From Pseudomonadota bacterium (GTDB taxonomy: Bacteria; Desulfobacterota; JAPLJL01): a stretch of 64,000 bases of DNA. The notes under the pieces are model-generated. The model saw only the letters and a list, made by a program, of their open reading frames with translations, made no database searches and was not told the DNA's origin. A program made the position numbers and the translations under genes. Below, in pieces: positions 1 to 48,024 of this stretch. Location of the stretch: contig JAPLJI010000057.1 of NCBI GenBank assembly GCA_026388655.1, forward strand, positions 3,604-67,603, written 5' to 3'. How positions within the stretch are numbered: position 1 is the first letter of the stretch; each line of letters opens with the position of its first letter.

Positions 1-175
<175 letters not shown>

Positions 176-328
176 TTATCTGGTCTACCTGGTCTATCTG
201 GTCTGTCATTTTAATTGACGAATGACGATTTTAGATTGACGATTCAATTTTTTTGCATTCGTCAATCGTCATTTCTTATGATTTCTTTGGTTTTCACTCC
301 GCAATCCGCAATCTACAATCCGCAATCG

Positions 329-1318
329 TCATTTCTTCTTTGCCCTGACCACCCGGTCCCTTCCGGAAAGATCCGGCAGGATCATTATTTCTTCATACCC
401 TCCGGTTCGGGCCAGGATTTCCTCTACCGCCCGGGCCTGGTTATCCCCAATCTCCATCAGTAAAAACCCCGGGGTTTTGAGAAATTGAAATCCTTTTTCC
501 GCCACCCGGCGGATGACCCCGAGACCATCCTCCCCCCCATCCAGCGCCAACCGGGGTTCGCCGTTGGCAACCTCCGGGGCCAGGGTCGGGATCACGGCGC
601 TCGGAATGTAGGGTGGGTTGCATACCAGGAGATCAAAAAATCCGTGATATTGCTCCAGGGGCGCGAAAAGATCACCCGCTAAAAACTGGATTCTGTCTTC
701 GAGTTTGAGGCGGCGGGCATTCCCGGCCGCGATCCGGAGAGCTTCGGGAGACAGATCCGTGGCCCAGGCCCGGGCCTCCCGGATTTCCGTCAGAAGGGCC
801 AGGGCGACCGCTCCCGAACCCGTCCCCAAATCCAGGAAATTCAGTTCCGAGTTTCGAGTTTCGGGTTTCGGGTTCGGACGGGAAGAAGATTTTTCCATTC
901 CGCAATCCCTCCGGGCCGTAAGCCCTACTGGGCCGGAGGCCGCATTCCGTTTACCCTGATCGAAGTCGAAGGGCAATCCGCATTCTCTTGCCAGCCGGAT
1001 CGCTTCCTCCACCAACAGCTCGGTTTCCGGCCGCGGGATTAATACCCCGGGGGCTACCCGGATCGGGAGGGACCAGAACTCCCGCTCCCCCAGGAGGTAA
1101 AAAAGCGGTTCCCGTTCCCCCCTGCTCCGGATCAATTCCCGGTATTTCTTCTCTTCCGCCGGCGCGACCGGGGCCTCCCGGTCTCGGTAAAATTCCGCCC
1201 GGGCGATTCCGCCCGCCGAAAGGAAAAGCAACTCGGCCTCGACCCCGGAGCCGGGAATCCCCCGCCCTTCGAGATATTCCTTCCCCCATTCCACCAGGGC
1301 GCTGCGAGTTATCTTCAT
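329..1318 (-). CDS. prmC: Release-factor glutamine N5-methyltransferase PrmC/HemK, carrying an in-frame ~45-aa insertion encoded by a repeat element
   Basis: 329-aa ORF containing the PRPETE, DLGTGSGAVALAL and NPPY motifs, located immediately upstream of prfA as in many bacteria. The segment between the TELLVEEA motif and the DLGTGSG motif is ~40 aa longer than in E. coli PrmC. Confidence 0.85.
   Translation of the reverse strand: MKITRSALVEWGKEYLEGRGIPGSGVEAELLFLSAGGIARAEFYRDREAPVAPAEEKKYRELIRSRGEREPLFYLLGEREFWSLPIRVAPGVLIPRPETELLVEEAIRLARECGLPFDFDQGKRNAASGPVGLTARRDCGMEKSSSRPNPKPETRNSELNFLDLGTGSGAVALALLTEIREARAWATDLSPEALRIAAGNARRLKLEDRIQFLAGDLFAPLEQYHGFFDLLVCNPPYIPSAVIPTLAPEVANGEPRLALDGGEDGLGVIRRVAEKGFQFLKTPGFLLMEIGDNQARAVEEILARTGGYEEIMILPDLSGRDRVVRAKKK
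845..950. repeat. MITE/REP-like element copy inside the prmC reading frame, carrying a (GTTTCGRG)n array and a CCGCAATCCCTCCGGGCCG box
   Basis: The same composite motifs occur in the intergenic spacers at 7171-7330, 10884-11198 and 47808-48020. Here they are translated in-frame as part of PrmC. Confidence 0.7.
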
Positions 1319-2683: not shown

Positions 2684-2953
2684 TTACTTCGCCTTGGCGG
2701 ATTTGACGGATTTGACGGATTTGGCGGCTTTGGCGGAGCGGGCGTCCTGGGCGGCCTGCGAGTAGCGGCGCTGGAAGCGTTCCACCTTTCCGGCCGAGTC
2801 GATCAGCTTCTGCTTTCCGGTAAAGAACGGATGGCAGTTGGAACAGATGTCAATTTTGATTTCCCCTCCCCGGGTAGAGCGGGTTTCGATCCTGTTCCCG
2901 CAGGCGCAGAGAAATCGAGTGGGTTTATATTCCGGGTGAATTTCCTTTTGCAA
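2684..2953 (-). CDS. rpmE: 50S ribosomal protein L31 (zinc-ribbon type) with a repeat-encoded Lys/Ala-rich C-terminal tail
   Basis: The N-terminus reads MQKEIHPEY, with CxC...CSNCHPFFTG. The tail AKAAKSVKSVKSAKAK is encoded by ggatttgac tandem repeats at 2690-2730. Confidence 0.85.
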   Translation of the reverse strand: MQKEIHPEYKPTRFLCACGNRIETRSTRGGEIKIDICSNCHPFFTGKQKLIDSAGKVERFQRRYSQAAQDARSAKAAKSVKSVKSAKAK

Positions 2954-6372: not shown

Positions 6373-7149
6373 TTATTCTTCTAATTTAAAAAGCCGATTC
6401 GCGTTTTCCGTGGTCACCCGGGCCACTTCCTCCACCGGGACGGAGAGAATCCGGCCGATCTCCTCGGCCACCCAGGGAATATAAGCCGGCTCATTCCGGG
6501 TGCCCCGTTTCGGCTGGGGCGTTAAAAATGGGCAGTCGGTCTCGAGCAGAAGACGGGAAAGCCCCATTTCCCGGATCACGCCCCTAAGCTTCTCCGACCT
6601 GGGATAGGTTACCGCCCCGGTAATCCCCAGCCAGAAATTGAGTTCCACGTACTCGCGGGCCTCCGGCATTCCCCCGGAAAAACAATGGATCACCCCCCGA
6701 AGACCGCCGGACCGTGCGCGCTTTAAAACCTCCAGCGTTTCCGGGTGCGCCTCGCGGCAGTGGATGGAAACCGGCCTGCCGGTCTGGAGGGCCAGCTCCA
6801 GCTGGGCCTCGAAAGCCCGGAACTGCTCCCGGCGGGGGGAGAGGTTGCGGTAGAAATCGAGCCCGCATTCGCCCACCGCCACCACCCGGGGCGCCTGGAG
6901 CAGGGCGCGCAGTTCGGAGAGGGCGGCCGGGCTGAATTCCCGGGCCTCGTGGGGATGAAGCCCGACGGTGGCGAAAATCCCCGGGGTCCCCCGGGCCAGT
7001 TCCACCGCCTCCGGGTTCCCTTCCATCCCCTTCCCGGCCCCCACCACGATCATCCGGGTGACCCCCTGCTTCCGGCTGCGCTCCAACACCGCCGGAAGGT
7101 CGGACGCGAAATCCGGGAAATTCAGATGGGCGTGGGTATCTATGAACAT
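6373..7149 (-). CDS. tatD: TatD-family metal-dependent hydrolase/DNase
   Basis: MFIDTHAHLNFPDF N-terminus and a 258-aa TIM-barrel TatD pattern. Confidence 0.85.
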   Translation of the reverse strand: MFIDTHAHLNFPDFASDLPAVLERSRKQGVTRMIVVGAGKGMEGNPEAVELARGTPGIFATVGLHPHEAREFSPAALSELRALLQAPRVVAVGECGLDFYRNLSPRREQFRAFEAQLELALQTGRPVSIHCREAHPETLEVLKRARSGGLRGVIHCFSGGMPEAREYVELNFWLGITGAVTYPRSEKLRGVIREMGLSRLLLETDCPFLTPQPKRGTRNEPAYIPWVAEEIGRILSVPVEEVARVTTENANRLFKLEE

Positions 7150-7170
7150 GGGGGAAAAATAAGTTTATAG

Positions 7171-7330
7171 TTTCAGGTTTATGGTTTCGAGTTAAAGGAC
7201 GGAAAGCATAAACTGAAAAAAAGGGTTGAGGGTTCGGAGAAAAATTTACGGTTTTGCTTTTGAGGTCGTGGGTTTCTGGCCTCCCCTTCTGAGTTTCTGA
7301 ACCCGAAACCCGAAACTCGAAACTTCAAAC
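7171..7330. repeat. MITE-like element with (GTTTCGAGTT)-type terminal inverted repeats in the tatD-metG spacer
   Basis: tttcaggtttatggtttcgagtt at the left end and gagtttctgaacccgaaacccgaaactcgaaac at the right end are mutually inverted. No ORF lies within. Confidence 0.6.
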
Positions 7331-7335
7331 ATTTT

Positions 7336-8862
7336 TTATTCTATCCTCGGGAAAAGCGCTCGACCCCGCTGGACCCGGCCGGGAGGCCAGGAAACCCGCC
7401 ATTCCGAGAGGGAAGAAAATCCATCGTTCCACTCGCTCCCGGCGATCCCCAGCTGCTTCCGCATCTCCACCCCGGAATCGGGGAGGAAGGGGGAAACGAA
7501 CAGGGTGATCCAGCGCAGGGACTCCAGGCTGGCGAAAAGCACCGTGTCCAGCCGGCCTTTCTTTTCCGGATCCTTGGCCAGGTTCCAGGGGGCGGCCCGG
7601 TCCAGGTAGCGGTTCACCGCTCCGACAAATTCCCAGACCGCGATTAAAGCCGACTGGAAGGCCAGCTCCGGGAGCAGGCGGTGATATTCCTCCCGGGCTT
7701 TTTCCGCCGCCGCGATCAGGGTCTTCTCCTCCGGACCGGTGTCGGCCGGGGGATACTCCCCGCCGCGGTAGCGCACCACCATGGCCAGGATCCGGGAAAA
7801 GAGGTTTCCCAGGTCGTTGGCGAGGTCGGAATTGATCCGGCCCACTAGGGCCGCCTGAGAATAGTCCCCGTCCAGCCCGAAGGGAACCTCCCGGAGGAGA
7901 AAATAGCGGAAAGCATCCACCCCGAAACGATCGGCCACCTCCCCCGGGTCCACCACGTTCCCGAGCGATTTGCTCATTTTCTTGCCCTCCACCGTCCACC
8001 AGCCGTGGGCAAAAACCCGGCGGGGCAGCGGGAGCCCGACCGACATCAGAAAGGCCGGCCAGTAAACCGCGTGGAAGCGGAGGATATCCTTCCCGATCAC
8101 GTGCAGGTCCGCCGGCCAGAACCGGGAGAAGCGGGAATCCTCCTCCGGAAACCCCGCCCCGGTCAGGTAATTGGTCAGGGCGTCAAACCAGACATAAATG
8201 ATATGGCCGGGGTCGTCCGGAACCGGGATTCCCCAGCGGAAAGTCGTCCGGGAGACGGAGAGATCCCGGAGACCGCCCTGGACGAAGCTCAGGATCTCGT
8301 TTCTCCGGGTCGGGGGAGAAATAAATTCCGGGTGACTCTCGATATGCCGGAGCAGTTTTTCCTGGTAACGGCTCATCCGAAAGAAGTAGCTCGCCTCCTT
8401 GAGTTTCTCCAGCGGCCGGCCGCAGTCGGGACAGACCGGTTTTTCTTCCTGGAGCCCGGGGATGAAATTTTCATCGTGGACGCAGTACCAGTCTTCGTAT
8501 TCCCCGAGGTAGATATCCCCGTTGGCCTTCACCCGGCGCCAGATTTCGGCCACCGCCCGGTACTGCCGCTCCTGAGAAGTTCGGATAAAATCATTGTGGG
8601 AAATGCTGAGCTTCCCCCAGAGCTGCCGGAAGCGCTCCACCACCTGGTCGGCCAGCTCGATGGGCTTCAGCCCCCGCTCCCGGGCCGCCCGCTCGATCTT
8701 CTGGCCGTGCTCGTCGGTCCCGGTCAGGAACAGAACCTCCCGTTTGTTCATCCTTTGATAACGGGCCAGGACATCGCAGGCCACCGTTGTGTAGGCATGC
8801 CCAATGTGGGGAACGTCGTTGACGTAATATATCGGCGTGGTTAGATAATATTTTTCCATCAA
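7336..8862 (-). CDS. metG: Methionyl-tRNA synthetase
   Basis: HIGH-type motif (PIYYVNDVPHIGHAYTT), KMSKS (KKMSKSLGNVVDP), and a CPDCGRP zinc knuckle. Confidence 0.9.
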   Translation of the reverse strand: MMEKYYLTTPIYYVNDVPHIGHAYTTVACDVLARYQRMNKREVLFLTGTDEHGQKIERAARERGLKPIELADQVVERFRQLWGKLSISHNDFIRTSQERQYRAVAEIWRRVKANGDIYLGEYEDWYCVHDENFIPGLQEEKPVCPDCGRPLEKLKEASYFFRMSRYQEKLLRHIESHPEFISPPTRRNEILSFVQGGLRDLSVSRTTFRWGIPVPDDPGHIIYVWFDALTNYLTGAGFPEEDSRFSRFWPADLHVIGKDILRFHAVYWPAFLMSVGLPLPRRVFAHGWWTVEGKKMSKSLGNVVDPGEVADRFGVDAFRYFLLREVPFGLDGDYSQAALVGRINSDLANDLGNLFSRILAMVVRYRGGEYPPADTGPEEKTLIAAAEKAREEYHRLLPELAFQSALIAVWEFVGAVNRYLDRAAPWNLAKDPEKKGRLDTVLFASLESLRWITLFVSPFLPDSGVEMRKQLGIAGSEWNDGFSSLSEWRVSWPPGRVQRGRALFPRIE

Positions 8863-9872
8863 GAACCCTTATTCCCCTCCGGGGGCTTTTTCTCTTCTCT
8901 CCTCCGCTCTTCCGGCCTGCGCCCTTCCGGTTTTCTCCTCTCGGGGCGCTTTTCCTCGAGCGCTTCCACCGCCTCTTCCCCCGGAACCGGGGCCTCCCGC
9001 TTGCCCTCCGAGAGGGGACGGATATCCGCGATCGCCACTTCCGCCTCCTCCCCGCTTTCCAGGCGCACCTTCAGGCGGCGGCCAAAAATGTTGCGGGAGA
9101 GCACCTCGGCCCGCCCCTGGGTAACCATCACTCTTTCCCCGATCTGGGGCACCCCCCGGACCAGCTCCTGATAAACCTCCTTCTCGTAGGAGAGGCAGCA
9201 GAGCAGGCGGCCGCAGGGCCCCGAAAGTTTCTGCGGGTTCAGGGGCAGATCCTGCTCCTTGGCCAGCCGGACCGAAACCGGCTCGAACTCGGACAGGAAA
9301 TCCTGGCAGCACAGGATCCGCCCGCACATCCCCACCCCGCCCAGGAGCTTGGCCTCGTCCCGGACCCCGATCTGCTGCATCTCGATCCGGGTGTGGAAGC
9401 GCTGGGCCAGCTGGTGGACCAGTCCCCGGAAATCCACCCGGTCCCGGGCGGTGAAATAGAAAATCATCTTGCTCCCGTCGTAGAAATTCTCCACCTGGAT
9501 CAGTTTCATGGTCAGGCCCATCTCCCGGATCCGTTCCTGGCAATAGCGCAGGGCCTCCTGTTCCCGTTCGGTGTTGCGCACCTCGCGCTCCAGGTCGTCC
9601 TTGTTCACCCGGCGCAGGACCTTTTTCAGCGGCTTTTCCCGCTTGGGTTCCTCCTCGGTTGCGGCCTGGGGCTCGAGCACCACCGTGCCGATGCCCAAAC
9701 CCTTATCGGTCTCGATCAGGACCCGGTCCCCCCGCTTGAGTTCCAGGTCGCTCGCGTCGTAATCGTATATCTGCCCGACCCTCCGGGCCTTGACCTTTAC
9801 TATTCTTTTCGCCACAAGCGTTATTCTCCTCTGTTCAGGTCGGAGAACCCCGACCTTTAATTCAAATATCAA
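8859..9872 (-). CDS. PSP1-domain protein (YaaT/RicT-like) with a charged Glu/Arg/Lys-rich C-terminal tail
   Basis: Paired Cys clusters GMCGRILCC and GPCGRLLCCLSYE are typical of the PSP1 C-terminal domain. It lies between holB and metG, the same position yaaT occupies in Firmicutes. Confidence 0.7.
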   Translation of the reverse strand: MIFELKVGVLRPEQRRITLVAKRIVKVKARRVGQIYDYDASDLELKRGDRVLIETDKGLGIGTVVLEPQAATEEEPKREKPLKKVLRRVNKDDLEREVRNTEREQEALRYCQERIREMGLTMKLIQVENFYDGSKMIFYFTARDRVDFRGLVHQLAQRFHTRIEMQQIGVRDEAKLLGGVGMCGRILCCQDFLSEFEPVSVRLAKEQDLPLNPQKLSGPCGRLLCCLSYEKEVYQELVRGVPQIGERVMVTQGRAEVLSRNIFGRRLKVRLESGEEAEVAIADIRPLSEGKREAPVPGEEAVEALEEKRPERRKPEGRRPEERRREEKKPPEGNKGS

Positions 9873-9891: not shown

Positions 9892-10863
9892 TTAGTTTCT
9901 CCCCAGAAAGAGCTGATCCGCCGCCAGGCGCGGATTGGCATTGGCCCGCACCAGGGAAATGGTGGATTCCAGGATCTCGAGTCTCCGAAAGATATCCTCC
10001 CAGTCTCTTTCCCGCTCGGCCTCCAGCAGATCCTCGAGGTCGGGGTTAATGAGCGGCAAACCCTTTTCTCTCTTTCCGGGGGACAGCTTCCAGACCATCA
10101 GGTCCCGGAACAGGCCCCGGAAAAATTCCAGCTCTTCCAGGAGTTCCGCCCGGTCGGAGGCCATGACTTCCTCTCCGAGCCCGGTTCCCGCGTCCGTTTC
10201 CCGCCAGACCCGGCCGGCGAGTTCCCTTAAATGCTGGCGCGATTCGGGGGTGATGGCCAGGGCCCGGGCCAGGCTTCCCTGGGCGGATGCGGCGATCGCC
10301 TGGGCCTCCACCCGGGGCACCCCCCGCTTCTCTTCCAGGTAAGCGGCCATCTCTTCCCCGTTCAAGGGGGAAAAAAGCACCCGCTGGCAGCGCGACACGA
10401 TGGTGGGGAGCAATCCCTCCGGGCCCGGGGCGATCAGGATGAAAATCGCGCCTCCCGGCGGCTCTTCCAGTATCTTCAGGAGCGAATTGGCCGCCTGGGG
10501 GGTGAACTTTTCCGCCCCGTCAATCACGATAACCCTCCGGCTTCCCTCCCCGGGATGGTAAAAAAGTAACTTGTTGAGCTCCCGGATCTTCTCGATCTTG
10601 ATGGTTCCTTCCTCCGCGCCGTAAAAAATCACCTCGGGAAAATTCCCGGAATCAATCCGGCGGCAGACCGAGCAGGCGTCGCAAAAGTCCCCCCGGTTTC
10701 CTTCCGGGCAGGAAACCGCCTTGGCCAGGGCCCGGGCCACCTCCCGGCGGCCCACCCCCTCCGGCCCGGCAAAAAGGTAGGCGGGGGGAAGGCGGCGGCT
10801 GGCCACCGCGCTCCGGAGCATCTCGATCTCCTTCTTATGCCCGATTATCTCTTCCCAGCGCAT
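9892..10863 (-). CDS. holB: DNA polymerase III delta-prime subunit
   Basis: AAA+ clamp-loader motifs LFAGPEGVGRRE plus a CxxC zinc module (CPEGNRGDFCDACSVC). Confidence 0.8.
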   Translation of the reverse strand: MRWEEIIGHKKEIEMLRSAVASRRLPPAYLFAGPEGVGRREVARALAKAVSCPEGNRGDFCDACSVCRRIDSGNFPEVIFYGAEEGTIKIEKIRELNKLLFYHPGEGSRRVIVIDGAEKFTPQAANSLLKILEEPPGGAIFILIAPGPEGLLPTIVSRCQRVLFSPLNGEEMAAYLEEKRGVPRVEAQAIAASAQGSLARALAITPESRQHLRELAGRVWRETDAGTGLGEEVMASDRAELLEELEFFRGLFRDLMVWKLSPGKREKGLPLINPDLEDLLEAERERDWEDIFRRLEILESTISLVRANANPRLAADQLFLGRN

Positions 10864-10883
10864 CTCTCAAATCAAAGTTTATA

Positions 10884-11198
10884 ATTTCGGGTTTCGGGTT
10901 TCGAGTTTAAATCAATCATATTTTCCTGATCACCTGCTGCCCTGATATCCACTCCCTGATTCCCTGGTTACCTGATTTCCTTCGTTTCCCGTTTATCGTT
11001 TCTCGCAAGGCTGAAGCCTTGCCCTCTCCGAGCCGTAGGCTCTTCCGAGCCGGAGGCTACGTTCTGGTTAATCTGGTTTATTGAGTTTCTTTGGTTTAAC
11101 CCGAAACCAGAAACTAGAGACCCGAAACTTTCTTTATATATTCCGCAATCCCTCCGGGCCGGAGGCCGCAATCTGCAATCCGCAATTCATTTTGTTTT
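10884..11198. repeat. Composite repeat block containing (TTTCGGG)n inverted arms, a CCTGAT-type repeat, GCTGAAGCC hairpins and a CCGCAATCC box
   Basis: tttcgggtttcgggtttcgagttt at 10884 pairs with cccgaaaccagaaactagagacccgaaac at 11100. ttccgcaatccctccgggccggaggccgcaatctgcaatccgcaat at 11151 matches the sequence at 901-950. Confidence 0.6.
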
Positions 11199-12587
11199 TT
11201 CGAGATATTCCCGGTATCTCGCCAGGGCCGAGAAGACCCGGGCGGCGTTCTCCGGCGAGCTGATGATCGGCACCCGGTCTCCGAAAGCTTCCCGGAGGAT
11301 CTCGATCCAGGCCCGGTTCCCGATCGGGGCCAGGATCAGGGTTTTCCCTCCCGGCCCCAGCAATTCCTTCGGCAGGTTTCCCACTAGCGAGGCCGGCGGG
11401 ACCCCCTGTCGGACGAATTCCTTGGCCACGAAGGAAGGCAGGACCGGGATCCCGATAATCCCGTCCAGGTCCGGATCGGAAAGGATCACGGACAGGCCCT
11501 CGCCGAAAAGTCCGGAAGGCCCCACGTCCAGGGGATTGCGGATGGACATCCAGGCGGGGGCGATCTTTTTCATCTCGTTCCGGCTCCGCTCGGAAATGTC
11601 CGGGATCGTGAGCCCCAGGTTCACGCAGGTATCAGCGGTCTGCACCCCCATCGAGCCGGAAGAGGTGATGATCCCCGCCCTCCGCCCTTTCGGGAGGGAG
11701 GCCACCGAGAAAGCCCGGGCCAGGTCAAAGAGACCGAAAAAGTCATCCGACCGAACCACCCCGCACTGGCGAAAAGCCGCCTCGAAAATGGCGTCGTCCC
11801 CGGACAAGCTGCCGGTGTGCGAGAGGGCGGCCTTCCGGCCCACCTCGCTCCGCCCGCTCTTCAGGATCAGGATGGGTTTTTTCCGGGTCACCCGCGCGGC
11901 CAGGGAAAGAAAGGCCCGGCCGTTCTGGACTCCCTCTAGATATAAAACGATCACCTTGGTGGCCGGGTCGTCCGCCAGGTACTCGATCAGGTCGAGCTCC
12001 CCCACGTCCATCCGGTTACCGATGGTGATCACCTTGCTGAAGCGGATCCCGTTTTCCGGCCCCCAGTCGAGAATGATGTTCCCGAACACCCCGCTCTGGG
12101 CCACCACCGAGATCGGCCCGGGGGCCAGGCTTTCCTGCGGAACCTGGGTGGAGATGAAGCGGTTCGCGGTGTTCACCACCCCGATGCAGTTGGGGCCGAT
12201 CACCCGGATCCCGGCCTGGCGGGCGAATTCCTTCAGTTCCTCCTCGCGCTTTTTCCCTTCCGGCCCGGTTTCGGAAAAGCCGGCCGCCTCCAGGATGATG
12301 GACTTGATTCCCTTCCGGGCGCAGGCCTGGAACACCGGGAGGCAGATCGGGGCGGGGACAACCACAATGGCGAGATCCACCTTTCCCGGGATGGCCTCCA
12401 CGTCCGGGTAAACCGGAAGCCCGATGATCTCCTTTTCCCGGGGATTGACCAGCCGGAGCCGGTCCCGGTAGCCGTTTTCGGAAAGGCAGAGGGGCAATCC
12501 GGCCCCGAAAGCGATTCCCTTGGTGGCCCCGACAATCGCGACGGTTTCCGGCTCAAAAAATGGCTTTAATTCCTGTCTCAGCTCCAA
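11187..12587 (-). CDS. NDP-forming acyl-CoA synthetase, alpha-type subunit (CoA-binding plus succinyl-CoA-synthetase-like flavodoxin domains)
   Basis: 466-aa ORF with a CoA-binding Rossmann N-terminus (VAIVGATKG...) and the phospho-His loop region SHTGSLSG. No ATP-grasp part is present in the window. Confidence 0.7.
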   Translation of the reverse strand: MELRQELKPFFEPETVAIVGATKGIAFGAGLPLCLSENGYRDRLRLVNPREKEIIGLPVYPDVEAIPGKVDLAIVVVPAPICLPVFQACARKGIKSIILEAAGFSETGPEGKKREEELKEFARQAGIRVIGPNCIGVVNTANRFISTQVPQESLAPGPISVVAQSGVFGNIILDWGPENGIRFSKVITIGNRMDVGELDLIEYLADDPATKVIVLYLEGVQNGRAFLSLAARVTRKKPILILKSGRSEVGRKAALSHTGSLSGDDAIFEAAFRQCGVVRSDDFFGLFDLARAFSVASLPKGRRAGIITSSGSMGVQTADTCVNLGLTIPDISERSRNEMKKIAPAWMSIRNPLDVGPSGLFGEGLSVILSDPDLDGIIGIPVLPSFVAKEFVRQGVPPASLVGNLPKELLGPGGKTLILAPIGNRAWIEILREAFGDRVPIISSPENAARVFSALARYREYLEKTK

Positions 12588-12832
12588 AAATCCCTCCTTG
12601 ATTATTCGCCCAGGTTAAAAAAATAGTTTCTCCCCCACCCGATGTCCATAACCACGAGCCGTCTAATTATAGTAATTTTCTATCTATTGCAAAATGTTTG
12701 GCCGCGTCTTGACCTCGGGTGGGGAGGGACCTCATTGGCGAAAACCTCTTTGGCCCGCAACCTAAAAATTTTCCCCCTTATTGTTATCATTAGCAACCTA
12801 ATGTACTGCGTCGAAAGTCCCTTTACATTCTT

Positions 12833-12984
12833 GTCATTCCGGGCTTGACTGAGCCTGCCCCGTATTTGATCCGGGGGAATCCAGCCTTTTAATCGGATTC
12901 CCACTGGAGTTTATCCCGCACTCTGATGCGGGATGGGAATGACCCCGCTTTTTTGCGGGCAGATAGAAGAAAGACGGGAATGAC
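12833..12984. repeat. GTCATTCC...GGAATGAC hairpin repeat element (about 112 bp core plus an extra hairpin)
   Basis: The core is about 88% identical to 59579-59690. The inverted termini gtcattccggg / cccgggaatgac match the short copies at 15940, 20202, 27407 and 35740. Confidence 0.75.
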
Positions 12985-13159
12985 GGCTTCGAAATTAATG
13001 TAACGAAGTGTTGGATGCACGACACTAAATGCGATAAGATGGGTCTACACGTTAAATCAACCCAACGCCTTCCATGGCATTAACCATGCAATCCTTGATG
13101 ATTCGAAATACCCTCAGCCCCGGTCCATTTCCGAAGATCTTCATTTCGGAATTTTACCT

Positions 13160-15136
13160 TTGTTCCATTGGCAAAAATCCATCATGAACAATTTTTTCAT
13201 GTCCGATTATAGTTATCTGCTCCTGCTGAAATCCTTTGTCACCATAATAAAAAATTCCTTCCTCGTGTCCTTTATTATCGCCTTATCGGTATCCTTGGGA
13301 AGTTACCTGTTAGAAAAACTTAAATTCAATTTCCCCTCATTATTAGAAAAGCTTGTTTGCTCGGCCGGGGTGGGCCTGGGGTTATATGCCCACCTGGTTC
13401 TCTTGATCGGGTTCCTGGGATGGTTATATCCTCAGGTTTTTTATGCAATTTTATTAATCAATTTTTTGCTATTTTATGGAAACCTTAAAAAATGGGTTCT
13501 GCAATTAAAAGAACAGAATTTGCTGGTTTTTTTCAGGTTTTCTGACTGGAAGCAGGTCTTTTTTTACGGGGGAGCGGCGGTAATTATCCTTTCTTCATTT
13601 CTGGTAAATCTTACCCCGGTTTCATTCTATGATAATCTAATTTACCACTACGGGGTTCCTAAATACTATATCGCCTCCCATCGAATCATATTCATCGAGG
13701 GAAATATTTATGCAAATTTCCCTCAAATAGCGGAAATGCTTTTTCTGCTGGGGATGATTCTGGATTCTCCCTTGACCGCCAATCTTATCCATTTTTCCCT
13801 GGGCATCTTTCTTTTGCTTACGGTTTACTCATTCAGCCGAAACCGCTGGGGCAATTCCGCCGCCAATTTCGCCATATTATTCCTGGTCATGACTCCCGGA
13901 TTAATGCAATGGATAAGCCTGCCAAACGTGGATATAGAATTCGCCTGGTTTAACCTGCTCGCCCTTTTTATTTTGCTTAAATGGTTTGATTGTCGGAGTC
14001 CGAAAATCCTGGTCCTGTCCGCGGTGTTTGCCGGGCTTTCAATCGGGGTGAAATATACCGGGCTCATTTATTCTTTGGGAATTTTTATTTTGTTGATGGC
14101 AATCGAAAATATCATCACCCGTCAGTTAAGCTCCCTTAAGTTGCTAAAAAATATTTCCATCTATTGCGGGGTCGGGTTGATTGTTTTCCTTCCTTATTTG
14201 ATCAAAAATTATCATTTCACCGGGAATCCGGTTTCCCCGGCGCTTCCTCAGGTATTCAATCCCAACGGGGATCAGACCCGTGAATACCAGGCCTTATTGC
14301 GGGACGGGAAAAACGTAACTTTCTCAAAAGATTTTCTCCATACGATTCCTCAGCTGGTAAAAACTTTCTTAAATAATACTGTTCTGGTAAAAAAATATAT
14401 CGAATTCGGATCGTTTATCGGACCCCATTTTTTAATATTCCTGCCTTTAATATTTTTTCTCCGAAGGAAATGGAAAGAAATCCGGCTCTTAATTTATTTC
14501 CTCATCCTTTACGCGGGATTTTGGATTGGCACCTTTTGGATGATTAGATTTTTATATCCGGCCATCATCGTTACCTTCATGCTCATTGGTTACGCCTTCG
14601 ATAATTTAGACAAAAAACCAGGTTATCCAAGATTACTTATGCAGGCGGTTTTTATCTTGATCTTTGCGTTAAATTTTTTCGTTTTCCTGGAAATCTTTGA
14701 TCGGACAAAATCAATAAAATTTATTTTCGAAGGGATGGATGACAAATTATATATGTCCCGGGTTCTAAGCTCTTATCCCGTAATGGAGAAAGCGAATACC
14801 GAATTGCCCCCCTCCGCGAAGATTTTATGCCTGGGGGAAACCAGAAATTTTTACCTGGATATTCAAAATATCTGCCCTTCCGTATTCAATGCCAATCCCC
14901 TGTTCAAAATCCTGAAAGAATCCAATGATGTTATAGAAATAAAGGCCGGATTAAAGCAGCTGAAAATCACCCACATCCTCTACGACCCGGATGAATTGGA
15001 ACGAATTAGCCATTTCGGTGTTTATTTCCCGCCCCGGAATGAAAATAGCAAGGCCGCGCTCTTTAACAAATTTTTGGAAGATTGTTGGCCCCCAGTTTAC
15101 GAACAAAATCGTGTTTATTTATTAGGGATTAAATAA
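13160..15136 (+). CDS. Polytopic membrane protein, probably a GT-C-fold glycosyltransferase (GT39/ArnT-like), in a sharply AT-rich insert
   Basis: 658-aa ORF with at least 12 predicted TM helices and a C-terminal soluble domain of about 150 aa. Local GC is far below the flanking DNA. The true start may be the MNNFF or MSDYS Met. Confidence 0.5.
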   Translation: MFHWQKSIMNNFFMSDYSYLLLLKSFVTIIKNSFLVSFIIALSVSLGSYLLEKLKFNFPSLLEKLVCSAGVGLGLYAHLVLLIGFLGWLYPQVFYAILLINFLLFYGNLKKWVLQLKEQNLLVFFRFSDWKQVFFYGGAAVIILSSFLVNLTPVSFYDNLIYHYGVPKYYIASHRIIFIEGNIYANFPQIAEMLFLLGMILDSPLTANLIHFSLGIFLLLTVYSFSRNRWGNSAANFAILFLVMTPGLMQWISLPNVDIEFAWFNLLALFILLKWFDCRSPKILVLSAVFAGLSIGVKYTGLIYSLGIFILLMAIENIITRQLSSLKLLKNISIYCGVGLIVFLPYLIKNYHFTGNPVSPALPQVFNPNGDQTREYQALLRDGKNVTFSKDFLHTIPQLVKTFLNNTVLVKKYIEFGSFIGPHFLIFLPLIFFLRRKWKEIRLLIYFLILYAGFWIGTFWMIRFLYPAIIVTFMLIGYAFDNLDKKPGYPRLLMQAVFILIFALNFFVFLEIFDRTKSIKFIFEGMDDKLYMSRVLSSYPVMEKANTELPPSAKILCLGETRNFYLDIQNICPSVFNANPLFKILKESNDVIEIKAGLKQLKITHILYDPDELERISHFGVYFPPRNENSKAALFNKFLEDCWPPVYEQNRVYLLGIK

Positions 15137-15824: not shown

Positions 15825-15983
15825 TGTTCTTTTCCGTTTATCTCTAACCACATATTTAACAAGATAGGTAGCCGCAACCTTTAGGTTGCGCCATTTTCGC
15901 AGGCTGAAGCCTGCGGCTACCACTGAAAAATTTAACCCTGGATTCCTGCTTTCGCAGGAATGACACCCAAAAAACCTAAACTG

Positions 15984-23930: not shown

Positions 23931-24285
23931 AAAACGCGACCCAGCTCTCCTGTGGGACATCCTTAACACCGCCAAAAAGACGATCAAATCCATCGAAGGG
24001 CTTGAACTCAAGGATTACTTGGCGGATGAGAACCTCAGACTGACGGTTGAACGCCGGATCGAAATTATCGGGGAAGCCGCCCGGCGAACCAGCGAAGCAT
24101 TCCGGAACAGCCATCCCGAGATCCCTTGGAAATCAATGATCGGCCAGCGCAACGTGATGGCCCACGAGTATGACGAGATTGATCACGAGCGGGTATACAA
24201 TCTTGTCAAGCAACACCTGCCAGCATTGGTCAGCCTTCTGGAACCGCTCGTCCCTCCTCCTCCACCGGAAGAAAAAGTCTCCTAA
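23920..24285 (+). CDS. hepT: HepT-type HEPN toxin (DUF86)
   Basis: Contains RNVMAHEY, an R-x4-H-x-Y HEPN motif. ATGCCTCCTGA overlap with mntA. The long ORF from 23833 is probably an upstream extension. Confidence 0.75.
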   Translation: MPPEKRDPALLWDILNTAKKTIKSIEGLELKDYLADENLRLTVERRIEIIGEAARRTSEAFRNSHPEIPWKSMIGQRNVMAHEYDEIDHERVYNLVKQHLPALVSLLEPLVPPPPPEEKVS

Positions 24286-24589
24286 CGATTTCTCGGATTT
24301 CCCAACCTCATCGTAATAAATATACGTTCTGCCCTCCGCCTGCAGGGGGTAATAAACCCAACCCCAAGGTAGGTTTAGATCAAGATTATTAAAAAGCGCC
24401 AAATATTGGGGAGTCTTTCAAGGTAAACCCCTATTTACCCTATACCTTGAGAGTTCTTCCCTCGATCCCGAAGGTCTCGGGACTGAAGGGAGGGACGAAA
24501 ACCCCGGAGGGATGGGAAAAGAACCCAAATGGGCAGGATAAAAACCTCTACGAGCCCCCGTCTCGAATTTTATGAGATTGTCTGAGTAT

Positions 24590-24961
24590 TTAGCGAAAAA
24601 CCTTTAAAAGAAAGAGATTCAATCTTCTCAATTTATCTTTACTTGCATGCCGAAGCAAAGAAATGATATTTATCATAACTTCTTCTTTTTCCTTTTCATT
24701 TGGCAGAAGATCGAATGAGAAAAGTTCCCCAAGTTTAACCCCAAGAACACTGGCAAGATTATCCATTGTTTTCAAGGTAACATTTATCTGGCCCCTCTCT
24801 ATCGCCCCATAATATTTAGGATTAATCCCGCCTCGTTCAGCCACTTCCTCTTGAGTTAAACCTTTGGCTTTTCTTATTGATCTCAGCCTTTCCCCAAAAG
24901 CCTTATAAATATTTACCAAATCCCACCTCCTGGTTTTTATAGTAGGAGGTTGGATTAACAA
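24590..24961 (-). CDS. XRE-family helix-turn-helix transcriptional regulator
   Basis: LRSIRKAKGLTQEEVAERGGINPKYYGAIERGQINVTLKTMDNLASVLGV is a classic HTH_3 domain. It is divergent from the two downstream plus-strand genes. Confidence 0.75.
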   Translation of the reverse strand: MLIQPPTIKTRRWDLVNIYKAFGERLRSIRKAKGLTQEEVAERGGINPKYYGAIERGQINVTLKTMDNLASVLGVKLGELFSFDLLPNEKEKEEVMINIISLLRHASKDKLRRLNLFLLKVFR

Positions 24962-25229
24962 GCAAAACCATATTATAAATAGGATTGTTTGTTGATTATC
25001 CTATTTATATATGGTATTTATAATTTCATAGAAGGGCATGACCGGTTATTTCTTTAACTTCGTGGGTAATAAAAGGTTTTATTTTAATTCCAATGAATGA
25101 TAAATGGCGAAAAGGAATCATAAACTTAGATGATTCAAAATCAATTTACTTAAGAGCCCCTCCTTGTTTTGGGTAGGGGAAGTTACTTTTTAAAAAAATA
25201 AATATAAATACCAATAAGGGGGGCACAAA

Positions 25230-25628
25230 ATGTTCAAAAGGTTGAGTTTGATTTGCGGTTCGATTCTTTTTTCATTATTGATTGGTTGCGCGGTTAATGG
25301 AACTATTCCAAAAAATTATTACATTAGCACGGGGACTTTAACTACACCGGATTATCAATTGAGAGAATCGGTAAGTGGACAAAGTTGCTCCGGTTTTTAT
25401 CTTTGGGGTTTTAAAGGTGGGAAAATTGGCAGCGTTCAGGAAGCGATAGAAAATGCAATAAAAAATAATCCGAGGTTACGGGAACAAGGTGATGGAATTG
25501 TGATGTATAAGGAGAAAACCAGTCTTACTGCTTACGCTTTTTTATGTCTCTTAACTTATGGATTGGTTTGCCCAAATGTTAATTGTGTTAATGTTCAAGG
25601 AACTATGGTAAAGAAATTCGAAAAGTAG
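25230..25628 (+). CDS. Small predicted lipoprotein of unknown function
   Basis: Signal peptide with lipobox LLIGC. AT-rich. It lies between the XRE regulator and the HEPN-like gene. Confidence 0.5.
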   Translation: MFKRLSLICGSILFSLLIGCAVNGTIPKNYYISTGTLTTPDYQLRESVSGQSCSGFYLWGFKGGKIGSVQEAIENAIKNNPRLREQGDGIVMYKEKTSLTAYAFLCLLTYGLVCPNVNCVNVQGTMVKKFEK

Positions 25629-25714
25629 TTTTGTTTGAAATAAGTTCGCAGTCCTCATCCTTTTCGGGGGTGTAGTAGTGGCCCTCAACGACCGCCCCAC
25701 AGGGAAGAATTATC

Positions 25715-26569: not shown

Positions 26570-26882
26570 TTTCATCTGTCGCGGAAATTCGAGGGTCATC
26601 TAATGAATCTCCCTGCGGCAGAGACCGCAGGGTATCTGGGAAGGAAGCCTTCATCCCCGTGGCAAGACCACGGGGAATTCGGCAAAATCCTTGGTTAAAA
26701 GTCGCCCTAAAAAAGCTGCTTCTCTTTTCTAAAGATAAAATTTTTATTTTAATTCTCAATCTCGGTAAGAAAGAAATTTAGTTCTGGATTTTCCGCTTCT
26801 CAATTTATTTTCACCCTCCCCCTACTTCGCTAATCCATCCTTCGCTAAAGCTTCGGAGGACAGGAGCTTCGAAGGGCAGGCC

Positions 26883-34441: not shown

Positions 34442-34520
34442 AAAATATCCCCCTTGAACCCTTGAACCCTTGAACCCTAAACTTAAAACTTGGAACCCTA
34501 TTTTTGATTGGAGGTGATTT

Positions 34521-35702
34521 ATGGCCGGACCCCTGAAAGGAATGAAGATCCTCGATTTTTCCGCCCTGCTCCCCGGGCCCTTCGGCACGATGATCCTGGG
34601 CGACCTGGGCGCCGAGGTCCTGAAGGTCGAGGCCCCCAACCGCCCCGACCTGATGCGCTTCGCCCCGCCCTACGACGGCGGAGAATCCTCCATGCACCAC
34701 GTCATTAATCGAAATAAAAAATCCATCGGGATCAACCTGAAATTTCCGGAAGGGGTCGAGCTGGTGAAAAAACTAGTCCGGGCCTACGACATCATGATCG
34801 AGCAGTTCCGCCCGGGGGTGATGGAAAAACTGGGGGTTGGATACGAAACCCTGAAAAAGGAAAATCCCCGGCTGATCTACTGTTCCATCACCGGCTACGG
34901 TCAAACCGGGCCCTACCGCGACCGGGCCGGTCATGACATCAACTACCTCTCCACCGCTTCGATCCCGAGCTTCTCCCATCGGAAGGGCGAGCGGCCCTTT
35001 CCCCAGGCCGTCCAGATCGCCGACGTGGGCGCCGGCTCCTACCAGGCGGTGGTCGCGATCCTGGCCGCGGTAATTCACCGGGAAAAAACCGGGGAGGGCC
35101 AGTATCTCGACGTTTCCATGACGGACGGGGCGGTCTCCTGGATCACCCACCACGCCCCCTCTTACCTGATTGACGGGAAAAGCCCGGGGGCGGAGGACGC
35201 CTTCCTCTCCGGGGGCGTGCATTTTTACGACTATTACGAGACCAAGGACGGCCGTTTCATGAGCGTGGGCTCGATCGAGCCCCAGTTCTACGCCGACCTC
35301 TGCCGCGGCCTCGGCCGGGAAGACCTGAAGGAAAAACAAAATGTCGAGGGCCAGGCCTCGGCGGAACTCAAGGCCGAGCTGCGCAAGATTTTCTCCGGGA
35401 AAACCCAGAAGGAATGGATCGAGATTTTCGCCAAGCTCGACGCCTGCGTCGAGCCCGTCCTGACCATGGGCGAGATGTGCGACCATCCCCAGACCCGGGC
35501 GCGGGGGATGGTGGTCACGGTGAAGAAACCGGACGGAACGCCGCAGAAACAGATCGCGAGCCCCTTCAAGCTCTCGGCCACCCCGCCCGAGATCCGTTCG
35601 GTCGGCCCCAAGATGGGCGAACATACCGACGAAGCCATGAAAGCCATCGGCTATTCCGAAAAAGAGATCCAGGCCCTCCGGGAAAAAGGCGTGGTCGCGT
35701 AA
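34521..35702 (+). CDS. Family III CoA-transferase (CaiB/BaiF/Frc-like)
   Basis: N-terminus LKGMKILDFSALLPGPFGTMILGDLGAEVLKVE and an overall length of ~390 aa are typical of the family. Confidence 0.8.
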   Translation: MAGPLKGMKILDFSALLPGPFGTMILGDLGAEVLKVEAPNRPDLMRFAPPYDGGESSMHHVINRNKKSIGINLKFPEGVELVKKLVRAYDIMIEQFRPGVMEKLGVGYETLKKENPRLIYCSITGYGQTGPYRDRAGHDINYLSTASIPSFSHRKGERPFPQAVQIADVGAGSYQAVVAILAAVIHREKTGEGQYLDVSMTDGAVSWITHHAPSYLIDGKSPGAEDAFLSGGVHFYDYYETKDGRFMSVGSIEPQFYADLCRGLGREDLKEKQNVEGQASAELKAELRKIFSGKTQKEWIEIFAKLDACVEPVLTMGEMCDHPQTRARGMVVTVKKPDGTPQKQIASPFKLSATPPEIRSVGPKMGEHTDEAMKAIGYSEKEIQALREKGVVA

Positions 35703-35739
35703 ATGACGATTGACGATTGCGGAATTTGGTTTTTACGCT

Positions 35740-39618: not shown

Positions 39619-39820
39619 CTCGCCTCCGATCTGGTCTGTCTTGTCTATTTAGTCTATCTGGTTCATTTAGTCTGTTTAGTCTGTTTGGTTTATCTGGTTT
39701 ATCTGGTTTATCTGGTTTCTCCGGTTTCTTTGGTTAACTGATACCCTGATGCCCTGATATCCATCTCCTGATTCCCTGATTGCCTGATTTCCTGTTTTCT
39801 CTTTCTAGCCACCTAACCAC

Positions 39821-47800: not shown

Positions 47801-47807
47801 AATAATG

Positions 47808-48020
47808 ATTTCGAGTTTCTGGTTTCGAGTTCCGAGTTAATAACCAAAAAGCGTAAATTTTGTTGACGCCATTAAAGTTACGAGTTTCGAGTCTCGAGTT
47901 TCGAGTTCAAGACCAAAGATAGAATAACTATCCTGTTTACTGACTCAATATTTAAATTCGCTTGTGCGGTTGATTTATTTCTTTGTTCAACCAGAAACCA
48001 GAAACTCGCAACTCGAAACT
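47808..48020. repeat. MITE-like element with (GTTTCGAGTT)n terminal inverted repeats in the spacer upstream of the CrtI-like gene
   Basis: tttcgagtttctggtttcgagttccgagtt at the left, gagtttcgagtctcgagtttcgagtt internally, and aaccagaaaccagaaactcgcaactcgaaac at the right. Confidence 0.6.
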
Positions 48021-48024
48021 TAGG

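What the first reader, a model, noticed from the sequence alone, without database searches (positions are those of the whole stretch)
7171..7330. Family of (GTTTCGRGTT)n-armed MITE/REP-like elements occupying several intergenic spacers
At least three spacers (7171-7330, 10884-11128, 47808-48020) carry 150-220-bp ORF-less elements. Their two ends are mutually inverted arrays of GTTTCGAG/GTTTCGGG units, as in miniature inverted-repeat transposable elements or REP/BIME-type structures. A fourth copy lies within prmC. The density, about one per 10-15 kb, is high.
Basis: seen in the sequence. Interest (0 to 1): 0.5.

Follow-up and report, generated by a model that had tools for sequence, protein, structure and literature searches.

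The report
Palindromic gene spacers with heptamer-repeat arms
Several gaps between genes in this uncultured bacterium hold fast-changing, hairpin-forming DNA whose two arms are short runs of a 7-base unit; Geobacter genome papers already noted this kind of thing without explaining it, so it is real and curious but not new in kind.

Summary
Inverted arrays of GTTTCNR bound three intercistronic spacers (7150-7335, 10864-11186, 47801-48024), and one array lies in frame inside prmC. The motif gives 30 hits against 3.5 expected.

These arrays are one unit family among many 7-9-nt tandem-array modules in this genome. Unit copy number differs between strains. Strains 99.5-99.8% identical in the flanking genes carry a metG-tatD spacer with the same architecture but a different unit (GGGTYCR). 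Close outgroups have overlapping metG/tatD codons, which serves as an empty site. Geobacteraceae have a hairpin with arms of a third unit at the same junction.

MITE criteria fail: no target-site duplication, no shared core and no transposase. No Rfam family matches, and hairpin stability shows no sense-strand bias. Permuted control heptamers are as common in viral contigs as GTTTCGR, so the array alone is ordinary. The inverted pairing is specific: 19 pairs, all G/T-rich arm first.

The closest precedent is the paired tandem 7-9-nt "putative global regulator sites" of Geobacter metallireducens (2009).

Best reading (about 0.4): these are REP/BIME- or foldback-like non-autonomous palindromic repeats, shaped by slippage and recombination, that loop out of operon transcripts. 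Function remains untested.

The parts
7150..7335 (-). Element 1. It fills the whole metG-tatD intercistronic spacer. On the minus strand it reads: TAA stop, 5 nt, 5' arm, about 110-nt interior, 3' arm, 13 nt without a Shine-Dalgarno sequence, then ATG.
   Evidence: Strains L001-L004 and L006 replace the spacer with an unalignable element of a different unit. The spacer is 77% identical to that of L007, against 69-74% at third codon positions.
7300..7330 (-). 5' arm of element 1: GTTTGAA GTTTCGA GTTTCGG GTTTCGG on the minus strand.
7163..7188 (-). 3' arm of element 1: TCGAAAC CATAAAC CTGAAAC TATAAAC on the minus strand. The outer units are decayed.
10864..11186 (-). Element 2. This composite spacer lies between a CoA-ligase-like gene and holB. 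On the minus strand it reads: an ATTGCGG array with a nested GC hairpin (11130-11186), the GTTTCNG 5' arm (11098-11128), 9-mer units (11063-11097), GC hairpins, ATCAGG-type 8-mers (10926-10981) and the YCGAAAC 3' arm (10877-10909).
   Evidence: Strains L088 and L089 have one extra heptamer in the 3' arm. L007 has a 96-nt element with arms of an AGGTCAN-type unit at this junction.
47801..48024 (-). Element 3, between an amine-oxidase-like gene (stop at 48025) and a 121-aa ORF (start at 47800). The arms are at 47989-48019 and 47808-47833, with an extra 3'-type array at 47876-47907.
   Evidence: The fold z-score is -3.9.
840..960 (-). In-frame insertion in prmC, just before the LDLGTGSG motif. 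It holds a (YCGAAAC)n array at 843-874 that encodes NPKPETRNSEL, and an ATTGCGG/GC-hairpin module at about 900-950.
   Evidence: The loop is hypervariable among homologues of 65-98% identity. A complete inverted element occupies the same loop in L149 and in the NC10 cluster.
124..328 (-). A spacer built on the same plan with other units: (ATTGCGG)4 at 298-327, an inverted ATTGACG/CGTCAAT pair at 214-244 and 258-280, and GACCAGATA 9-mers at 179-211.
39619..39820 (-). The MaoC-MaoC spacer, made of 8-mer and 9-mer arrays. It has no inverted partner and keeps a GGAGG ribosome-binding site. It shares a 56-nt segment at 86% identity with 10926-10981.
   Evidence: The number of 9-nt units differs by one or two between strains.
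34451..34489 (+). A (CCCTTGAA)n array upstream of a plus-strand gene. Its unit resembles the YGRACCC units in the 3' arm of the L001-type allele. A second such array is at 43061-43092.
35701..35732 (+). An ATGACG/ATTGACG/ATTGCGG array that starts at the TGA stop of a plus-strand CoA-transferase gene. It has the same orientation relative to its gene as the arrays at 298-334 and 11159-11189.
   Evidence: (I11)

Best explanation
These are non-autonomous palindromic repeat elements whose arms are short tandem arrays of a 7-nt unit. They resemble REP/BIME elements or foldback transposons in form.

Origin and turnover at the DNA level:
- Arrays gain, lose and homogenise units by replication slippage. 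This is shown.
- Whole modules are copied or exchanged between loci and strains by recombination rather than by cut-and-paste transposition. The exchange is shown; the mechanism is inferred.

Why they persist:
- They sit in originally very tight intercistronic junctions and in one tolerant protein loop.
- The arms abut the upstream stop codon and the downstream start codon, so they can pair.
- Pairing would loop the insert out of the operon transcript, or out of single-stranded DNA, as a 25-35-bp stem with periodic mismatches.

Inferred consequence. The stop codon and a start codon that lacks a Shine-Dalgarno sequence stay juxtaposed, so termination-reinitiation coupling could survive the insertion. 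The stem could also act, as REP elements do, as a barrier to mRNA decay or as a partial terminator.

The GTTTCGR elements are one unit family among many in this lineage. They are the same kind of object as the paired tandem-repeat sites of Geobacter metallireducens.
For: Slippage:
- Strains differ by one heptamer at the holB spacer.
- Strains differ by one or two 9-mers at the MaoC spacer.
- Each arm is more uniform internally than it is complementary to its partner, for example L149 with GG GG GG against GA GA GA GA.

Exchange between strains and loci:
- Strains 99.5-99.8% identical in the flanks carry an unalignable metG-tatD spacer with the same plan and another unit.
- The replaced block has sharp edges. 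SNPs cluster within 4 nt of the metG end and 12 nt of the tatD start, with the next SNP more than 150 nt away.
- A 56-nt segment is shared at 86% identity between 10926-10981 and 39738-39793.

Insertion into a tight junction:
- L008, L010-L014, L021, L028 and L076 have GTGA, ATGA or TAATG overlaps of the metG stop and the tatD start.

Architecture kept while sequence changes:
- The unit is GTTTCGR in the window and L007, and GGGTYCR in the L001 type.
- The unit is AGGTCAN-type at the L007 holB junction (fold z -3.3).
- At least three unit types occur in 12 Geobacteraceae metG-tatD spacers. All fold as one hairpin running from the stop codon to about 12-16 nt before the ATG. Ten of the 12 have z of about -1.7 or lower, down to -5.9.

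Other support:
- No Shine-Dalgarno sequence precedes tatD in the hairpin-bearing lineages, whereas GGAG is present in Desulfuromonadales.
- Arrays have no stop codon in any frame and occur in frame in prmC.
- Paired sites of 3-5 tandem 7-9-nt repeats on opposite strands at variable distance were reported between operon genes such as proB-proA. Similar repeats were reported inside genes without frameshift (PMC2700814 and PMC2996986).
Against: - There is no evidence of selection on the sense RNA. The sense strand folds more stably in only 5 of 13 and 7 of 14 elements. The RNAalifold covariation term is slightly unfavourable, with 5 of 15 pairs compensatory. Changes between the window and L007 arms are not compensatory by eye.
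- Overall, the window spacer evolves at about the synonymous rate: 77% identity against 69-74% at third codon positions.
- A plain hairpin requirement does not predict the strict polarity. All 19 GTTTC pairs read GTTTC..GAAAC and none is everted.
- The coupling idea covers only co-directional gene pairs, and nothing about transcripts or translation was measured.
- Ectopic recombination as the means of spread is inferred. An unknown mobilising enzyme is not excluded.
Confidence: 0.4

Rival explanations
1. True MITEs or REPINs: non-autonomous elements cut or copied by a transposase (a RAYT/IS200-like enzyme or another) that recognises the heptamer arrays as multiple binding sites in the terminal inverted repeats.
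For: - The arms are inverted and terminal, with a strict outward polarity: 19 inverted pairs and 0 everted.
- Outgroups show an empty site at the metG-tatD junction.
- L007 carries an array at the tatD-rluD junction where the window has none.
- In L110, three consecutive intercistronic gaps carry copies with a homologous GC hairpin core.
- In-frame insertions occur in prmC in two distant lineages.
- In G. metallireducens, IS elements sit at a fixed distance from paired sites.
- A possible degraded IS200-like ORF lies at 56575-56950.
Against: - No target-site duplication exceeds shuffles in 12 elements.
- The interiors of the window copies are unrelated, and arm lengths are unequal.
- The strain difference is a replacement, not an insertion or excision.
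- The ORF fragments have no significant transposase hit.
- The arms lack the REP-type GTAG or CGTC tag.
- No autonomous element was seen in 80 metagenome loci and 46 viral loci.
Confidence: 0.15
2. Arrays of binding sites for DNA-binding proteins. Candidates are nucleoid-associated proteins or 'global regulators' such as IHF/HU, as proposed for Geobacter, or ribbon-helix-helix proteins that bind contiguous heptads. Two inverted arrays would bracket and loop an intergenic region.
For: - Each unit has a conserved 5-6-nt core and one or two free positions, and the arms are not exact complements.
- The 7-bp period is strict, and the polarity is strict.
- Hairpin stability shows no strand bias.
- The Geobacter authors' own reading was protein binding.
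- From my own knowledge: the omega repressor of pSM19035 binds contiguous 7-bp heptads in direct or inverted orientation.
Against: - At least eight unit families in one 64-kb window, and unit swaps at a single locus between near-identical strains, would need many proteins or very loose specificity.
- Arrays tolerated in frame inside prmC argue against a site-specific regulatory role.
- No candidate protein was identified.
Confidence: 0.15
3. Selected RNA-level devices: intercistronic hairpins that act as bidirectional intrinsic terminators or attenuators, RNase III or decay-barrier sites, or ribosome-shunt structures. The structure would be kept by selection while the sequence drifts.
For: - A hairpin is present at the same metG-tatD junction across Geobacteraceae and the window lineage despite different units.
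- A shared ATTTTT(C/G)C..ATG tail follows the 3' arm.
- In 7 of 12 elements the flanks are A-rich on the left and T-rich on the right.
- Some elements hold a canonical GC hairpin followed by a T-run, for example L103.
- The arms are about 89% identical between the window and L007, against about 72% at third codon positions.
Against: - No sense-strand G.U bias is seen.
- The covariation signal is weak.
- The terminator scan finds none on the transcribed strand in spacers 1 and 2, the two it covered.
- No Rfam family matches.
- The z-score for element 1 is only -1.7.
- Recurrent replacement by fresh palindromes would give the same comparative pattern without any selection.
Confidence: 0.2
4. Ordinary microsatellite-like slippage products in AT-rich spacers, with no common identity. 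The apparent family would be low-complexity coincidence.
For: - Permuted control heptamer arrays are as frequent in viral contigs as GTTTCGR: 25, 17 and 53 contigs against 46.
- Unit number is unstable between strains.
Against: - The motif is about 8-fold above shuffles in the window.
- Period-7 arrays are about 10-fold denser than in related genomes: 13 per 64 kb against 23 per 942 kb.
- Partner arrays are inverted in 11 of 126 GTTTC loci and always with one polarity. Control loci give 3 partner pairs in 2 of 95 loci, with mixed arrangement.
- Both arms switch unit together.
- Complex segments are shared between loci.
Confidence: 0.05

Closest known systems
Paired 'putative global regulator binding sites' (classes 1-3) and heptanucleotide-repeat elements of Geobacter metallireducens, and the 6-42-nt intergenic direct repeats of G. 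bemidjiensis (Aklujkar et al. 2009, 2010; PMC2700814, PMC2996986)
   Same: - Each site is 3-5 tandem repeats of a 7-9-nt unit.
- Sites come in pairs on opposite strands at variable distance.
- They lie in intergenic regions, including between operon genes such as proB-proA.
- One genome holds several unit classes.
- Some families lie inside genes without causing a frameshift.
- Function is unknown.
- Geobacteraceae in my comparison carry such a hairpin at the same metG-tatD junction.
   Different: - The unit sequences differ: GTTGCTYN, TCTCCGTS[Y], MTYCTGA and GGACCGG, against GTTTCGR here.
- The host lineage differs (MetG about 60% identical).
- The papers do not report strain-level unit replacement, the polarity rule or the stop/start abutment.
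REP / BIME / REPIN elements of Enterobacteria and Pseudomonas
   Same: - They are extragenic imperfect palindromes, often in inverted pairs.
- They are typically found after stop codons and between co-transcribed genes.
- They are hairpin-forming and dispersed.
- From my own knowledge, REPs affect mRNA stability, termination and translation of the upstream gene.
   Different: - REPs are 20-40-nt units with a family consensus and a GTAG or CGTC tag, and are linked to RAYT genes.
- Here the arms are tandem heptamers, no tag is present, the interiors are unrelated and no RAYT was shown.
Foldback transposons (Drosophila FB, Galileo) and MITEs with internally repetitive terminal inverted repeats
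   Same: - The inverted arms are built from short tandem subrepeats.
- Arm length varies between copies.
- The 'loop' sequence between the arms is heterogeneous.
   Different: - These are eukaryotic, much larger, transposase-mobilised and flanked by target-site duplications.
- None of these features was found here.
TAACTGA heptamer direct repeats of Beggiatoaceae, cyanobacteria and Bacteroidetes (MacGregor 2015, PMC4679880), and cyanobacterial STRR heptamers
   Same: - They are tandem heptamers in intergenic DNA.
- Most lie a few nucleotides upstream of start codons that lack a canonical ribosome-binding site.
- They occasionally occur inside ORFs.
   Different: - There is a single unit sequence, and the repeats are direct only (one indirect case is reported).
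- They are not paired palindromes.
Rickettsia palindromic elements (RPE), which insert in frame in protein genes
   Same: A palindromic repeat is tolerated in frame inside a conserved housekeeping gene (prmC here).
   Different: RPEs share a consensus of about 100-150 bp. Here only the unit-level arrays are shared, and the insert is hypervariable.

Membership tests
MITE | Terminal inverted repeats | tested here: met
   Inverted GTTTCNR arrays lie at both ends of all three spacers.
MITE | Target-site duplication flanking the element | tested here: not met
   In 12 elements the longest flanking direct repeat is 0-4 nt and never exceeds shuffles.
MITE | Copies share a homologous internal sequence and a defined length | tested here: not met
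   The interiors of the three window copies are unrelated, and lengths range from about 60 to 270 nt. Only L110 shows a shared GC-hairpin core.
MITE | A related autonomous element encoding a transposase with the same ends | tested here: inconclusive
   None was found in the window or in the 126 array-bearing loci. The ORF fragments at 56575-56950 have no significant transposase hit. No whole genome was available.
MITE | Presence/absence polymorphism with an empty site | tested here: met
   metG and tatD overlap (GTGA/ATGA/TAATG) in L008, L010-L014, L021, L028 and L076. Between near-identical strains, however, the difference is a replacement.
REP/BIME/REPIN | Short extragenic imperfect palindromes, often as inverted pairs between co-directional genes | tested here: met
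REP/BIME/REPIN | Family consensus with a terminal GTAG or CGTC tag | tested here: not met
   The GTTTCGR arms carry no such tag. The criterion comes from PMC3733652.
REP/BIME/REPIN | A cognate RAYT gene in the genome | not testable with these tools
   Only 64 kb of the genome is held. The candidate remnant is not significant.
Geobacter paired tandem-repeat sites (Aklujkar classes 1-3) | Each site is 3-5 tandem repeats of a 7-9-nt unit | tested here: met
   definition
Geobacter paired tandem-repeat sites (Aklujkar classes 1-3) | Sites paired on opposite strands at variable distance, in intergenic regions including within operons | tested here: met
   The arms are 13-190 nt apart and lie between co-directional genes.
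Geobacter paired tandem-repeat sites (Aklujkar classes 1-3) | Same unit consensus as one of the published classes | tested here: not met
   GTTTCGR differs from GTTGCTYN, TCTCCGTS[Y] and MTYCTGA. The window's CCTGAT 8-mers loosely resemble MTYCTGA.
Intrinsic (bidirectional) terminator | A compact GC-rich stem immediately followed by a U-tract | tested here: inconclusive
   The scan finds no terminator on the transcribed strand in spacers 1 and 2, the two it covered. T-rich tails follow the 3' arm in many elements, but the stems are long, AT-rich and interrupted.
Known structured RNA family (Rfam) | A match at the gathering score | tested here: not met
   There are 0 matches in the whole window.

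The most novel reading that the evidence does not exclude
The inverted short-tandem-array spacer, with its strict G/T-rich-arm-first polarity and its abutment to stop and start codons, may be a selected device that spans lineages (this lineage, Geobacteraceae, NC10). One possibility is a hairpin that lets ribosomes terminating at the upstream stop reinitiate on a downstream cistron lacking a Shine-Dalgarno sequence, as a bacterial analogue of ribosome shunting. Another is that the arrays are laid down or exchanged by a dedicated machinery that is still unknown. Either reading would replace the view that they are tolerated junk.
Probability: 0.15. Interest if true: 0.75.

Novelty: new member of a known kind. 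Interest (0 to 1): 0.45.

Why it matters
If the reading is right, operon junctions in these bacteria are occupied by a fast-turnover class of palindromic repeats. Their sequence is free to change but their architecture is not. This gives a concrete population-level example: a spacer swapped whole between strains that are 99.5-99.8% identical in the flanking genes. It also links the unexplained 'global regulator sites' noted in Geobacter genomes in 2009-2010 to a testable idea, namely hairpin looping at stop/start junctions.

Practical points:
- Assemblies break at these arrays.
- Gene callers mis-set start codons near them, as happened for holB.
- The arrays insert hypervariable peptides into PrmC.

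Tried and rejected
1. Gene-centred 'panhandle'. The idea was that the 5' leader array pairs with the 3' trailer array of the same operon. It is rejected because arms match by spacer, not by operon. The L087-type strain has GAAAC upstream of holB but GGGTYC after metG, and L007 likewise mismatches.

2. TATAAAC as a -10 box giving near-leaderless tatD and holB transcripts. It is rejected because these are decayed GTTTCGA units, there is no -35 element, and the scan finds no minus-strand promoter there.

3. Wide occurrence of GTTTCGR arrays as evidence of a single mobile family. The pattern hit at least 120 metagenome contigs of GC 31-69% and 46 viral contigs. The inference is rejected because three permuted control heptamers are equally common.

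4. Sense-strand RNA selection through G.U asymmetry. No bias was found.

5. Target-site duplications. None was found.

6. Rfam. Nothing matched.

7. The RAYT remnant. It is not significant.

8. Literature search by the repeat sequence itself. It returned only unrelated papers.

9. Exact-protein look-ups for holB (323 aa), the amine-oxidase-like gene, prmC and the 121-aa ORF found nothing. Strain variants of element 3 and of the prmC insert could therefore not be compared at the DNA level.

10. One search failed because of wrong coordinates. One search replaced it.

Full report
**Observation**

GTTTCNRGTTTC with up to one mismatch occurs 30 times in the window. Shuffles give 3.54 +/- 2.10, and 0 of 100 shuffles reach 30. 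TRF reports period-7 arrays at 843-874, 7300-7323, 10885-10908, 11098-11128, 47876-47907 and 47989-48020.

Pfam places the flanking genes on the minus strand:
- TatD at 6373-7149
- MetG at 7336-8862
- a PSP1 protein at 8859-9872
- HolB at 9892-10863
- a CoA-ligase-like protein at 11187-12587
- an amine-oxidase-like protein at 48025-49509

All three spacers are therefore intercistronic gaps between co-directional genes. On the transcribed strand the order is:
1. the stop codon,
2. a gap of 5, 58 or 5 nt,
3. (GTTTCNR)4,
4. an interior of 110-190 nt,
5. (YNGAAAC)4,
6. a gap of 13, 13 or 7 nt,
7. the ATG.

The arms pair in the minimum-energy folds, with z-scores of -1.7, -2.6 and -3.9. The prmC copy is a (YCGAAAC)n array plus another module. 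It lies in frame just before the LDLGTGSG motif.

**A wider phenomenon in the same window**

GTTTCGR is one of many unit families. Spacers also carry arrays of:
- ATTGACG, with an inverted CGTCAAT partner (214-280)
- ATTGCGG
- TTCAAGG(G)
- GACCAGATA and AAACCAGAT 9-mers
- ATCAGG-type 8-mers
- CGTCTAA and ATTAGAC

These are seen. Some complex stretches recur between loci. For example, 10926-10981 and 39738-39793 are 86% identical over 56 nt.

Period-7 arrays with at least 3 copies number 13 in the 64-kb window and 4 in the 13 kb of L007, the closest GTDB genome. In 942 kb from 79 more distant relatives there are only 23. Geotalea sp. SG265 (L064) has many composite arrays of the same style.

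**Comparative and population data**

Metagenome contigs with an identical TatD are 99.5-99.8% identical to the window in the flanking genes. In five of six, however, the metG-tatD spacer is unalignable. It keeps the same plan with another unit: GGGTYCR arrays, an interior, then YGRACCC arrays. Its fold has z = -3.5.

The replaced block has sharp edges. SNPs lie within 4 nt of the metG end and within 12 nt of the tatD start. The next SNPs are 167 or more and 1239 nt away.

L007 (MetG 88% identical) keeps the GTTTCGR element at metG-tatD. That spacer is 77% identical to the window's, against 69-74% at third codon positions; the arms are about 89% identical. At the CoA-ligase-holB junction L007 has a 96-nt element with arms of an AGGTCAN-type unit.

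Unit number also varies between strains:
- one extra heptamer in the holB 3' arm
- one or two extra 9-mers in the MaoC spacer

Across 80 GTDB genomes the metG-tatD junction takes three states:
- (i) Overlapping codons (GTGA, ATGA or TAATG) or gaps of 6 nt or less, in the next-closest relatives and in several other phyla.
- (ii) A small GC hairpin, a T-run and GGAG, in Desulfuromonadales.
- (iii) In Geobacteraceae: the stop codon, G-rich heptamer arrays, a short loop, C-rich arrays, then GGAAATTTTTCC-ATG. At least three unit types occur.

All 12 Geobacteraceae spacers tested fold as one hairpin running from the stop codon to about 12-16 nt before the ATG. Their z-scores range from -0.6 to -5.9. 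The tail ATTTTT(C/G)C..ATG resembles that of the window.

**Distribution and controls**

GTTTCGRGTTTCGRGTTTC hit at least 120 metagenome contigs (GC 31-69%) and 46 viral contigs. Three permuted control heptamers hit 25, 17 and 53 viral contigs. The array as such is therefore ordinary.

What is specific is the pairing:
- About 10 metagenome loci and 5 viral loci have an inverted partner within 400 nt.
- Every one reads GTTTC..GAAAC. With the window and L007 this makes 19 pairs and no everted pair.
- Of 95 control loci, two carry partner arrays (three pairs), and the arrangements are mixed.

Most paired elements sit between a stop codon 0-14 nt away and a start codon 4-63 nt away, in co-directional genes. 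Position 7 of the unit is not complementary between arms, and each arm is homogenised internally.

**prmC**

Homologues 65-98% identical to the window protein are 300-331 aa long. The loop before motif I is hypervariable among them, and NPKPETRNSEL is replaced by unrelated peptides in some.

A group with about 43% identity carries a complete inverted element in frame in the same loop, encoding FEFRVSSFE...KPETRNPEL. L149 shows the same. One 90%-identity cluster in this group, that of P0073, includes Candidatus Methylomirabilis limnetica of phylum NC10.

**Tests of interpretations**

MITE:
- No target-site duplications.
- No shared interior among the window copies.
- No transposase. The ORF fragments at 56575-56950 give only weak DnaA_C-like hits.

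Structured RNA:
- No Rfam match.
- No sense-strand stability bias: 5 of 13 and 7 of 14 elements.
- Weak covariation.

Terminator or promoter: the scan was not informative.

A 5'-3' panhandle of whole operons is contradicted by the alleles.

**Literature**

Aklujkar et al. described pairs of sites in G. metallireducens, 24, 21 and 8 pairs in three classes. The sites lie on opposite strands at variable distance, and each is 3-5 tandem 7-9-nt repeats. One example lies between proB and proA. The authors read them as binding sites for unknown global regulators, perhaps IHF or HU.

They also described a heptanucleotide family found within and between genes. In G. bemidjiensis they reported 6-42-nt direct repeats, multicopy sequences in 12% of intergenic regions, and one family inserted in genes without frameshift.

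MacGregor described TAACTGA heptamers just upstream of start codons that lack a ribosome-binding site. No paper holds the GTTTCGR sequence in a relevant context.

**Conclusion**

Shown:
- The elements are real.
- They are palindromic.
- They were inserted into an ancestrally tight junction.
- Their unit number is unstable.
- They are exchangeable as whole modules.
- They are constrained in plan but not in sequence.

Inferred:
- They spread by slippage and recombination rather than by a transposase.
- They persist because the arms can loop the insert out, which would keep the stop and start codons together.

I put about 0.4 on this reading. The rivals are a selected RNA device (0.2), a transposase-mobilised MITE or REPIN (0.15), protein-binding arrays (0.15) and plain microsatellites (0.05).

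The strict arm polarity and the shared prmC site remain unexplained. In kind, this is a new unit family of an already reported but unexplained class.

Noticed in passing
window 39033-39077 region (compare L217 2050-2135): The window lacks 86 nt that four other strain contigs have. The missing stretch covers part of the spacer, the ATG and the first 12 codons of the CoA-transferase gene 37887-39032(-). This is either a real deletion or an assembly artefact.
   Followed up: partly
window 12830-12902, 35794-35865, 59576-59636: A different dispersed repeat of about 72 nt (CTTGTCATTCCGGGCTTGAC...), 83-85% identical, occurs in direct and inverted copies. It lies next to a GGATTCCC...GGGAATGAC palindrome and is unrelated to the heptamer arrays.
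   Followed up: no
window 15938-15964, 27407-27433; 26652, 27349, 27484: Two further small hairpin repeat families were seen: CTGGATTCCTGC..GCAGGAATGAC, and CCCCGTGGCAAGACCACGGGG.
   Followed up: no
window 11130-11186 and 900-950; L007 7545-7577: GC-rich hairpins are nested inside heptamer arrays. CCTCCGGCCC..GGGCCGGAGG sits within ATTGCGG units here, and CCCGAGC..GCTCGGG sits within the GTTTC arm of L007. They look like a second small element that lands in the arrays.
   Followed up: partly
window 329-334, 11187-11192, 35698-35705: The TGA stop codons of prmC, the CoA-ligase-like gene and a CoA-transferase gene all lie in AAATGA(CG)ATTG.., the first unit of an ATTGCGG/ATTGACG array. The array therefore supplies or overlaps the stop codon, always in the orientation of the gene.
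   Followed up: partly
window 13000-15000 and 24000-27000: Low-GC islands (0.36-0.45, against about 0.6 elsewhere) carry a glycosyltransferase-like ORF, an HTH_3 regulator, a HepT-like toxin gene and ORFs without a family. They are probably acquired DNA.
   Followed up: no
window 56575-56950 (-): Two overlapping ORF fragments were found. One has a YHVTARGNERRNI motif, and the other has a weak DnaA_C-like helix-turn-helix hit (E 0.007-0.15). They may be a degraded IS200-like gene, but the hits are not significant.
   Followed up: yes
window 10821 vs 10863: Metagenome gene callers start holB at an internal ATG (309 aa) that is preceded by AAGGAG. The conserved N-terminus MRWEEIIGH, which L007 shares, argues for the upstream ATG at 10863 with only a weak ribosome-binding site.
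   Followed up: partly
window 2694-2737: A 9-nt tandem repeat (TTGGCGGAT, 4.9 copies) lies in frame at the 3' end of the small ORF 2684-2953(-). This is a coding tandem repeat of the same period class.
   Followed up: no
whole window: Rfam at gathering thresholds finds nothing in 64 kb: no tRNA, riboswitch or other known RNA.
   Followed up: no
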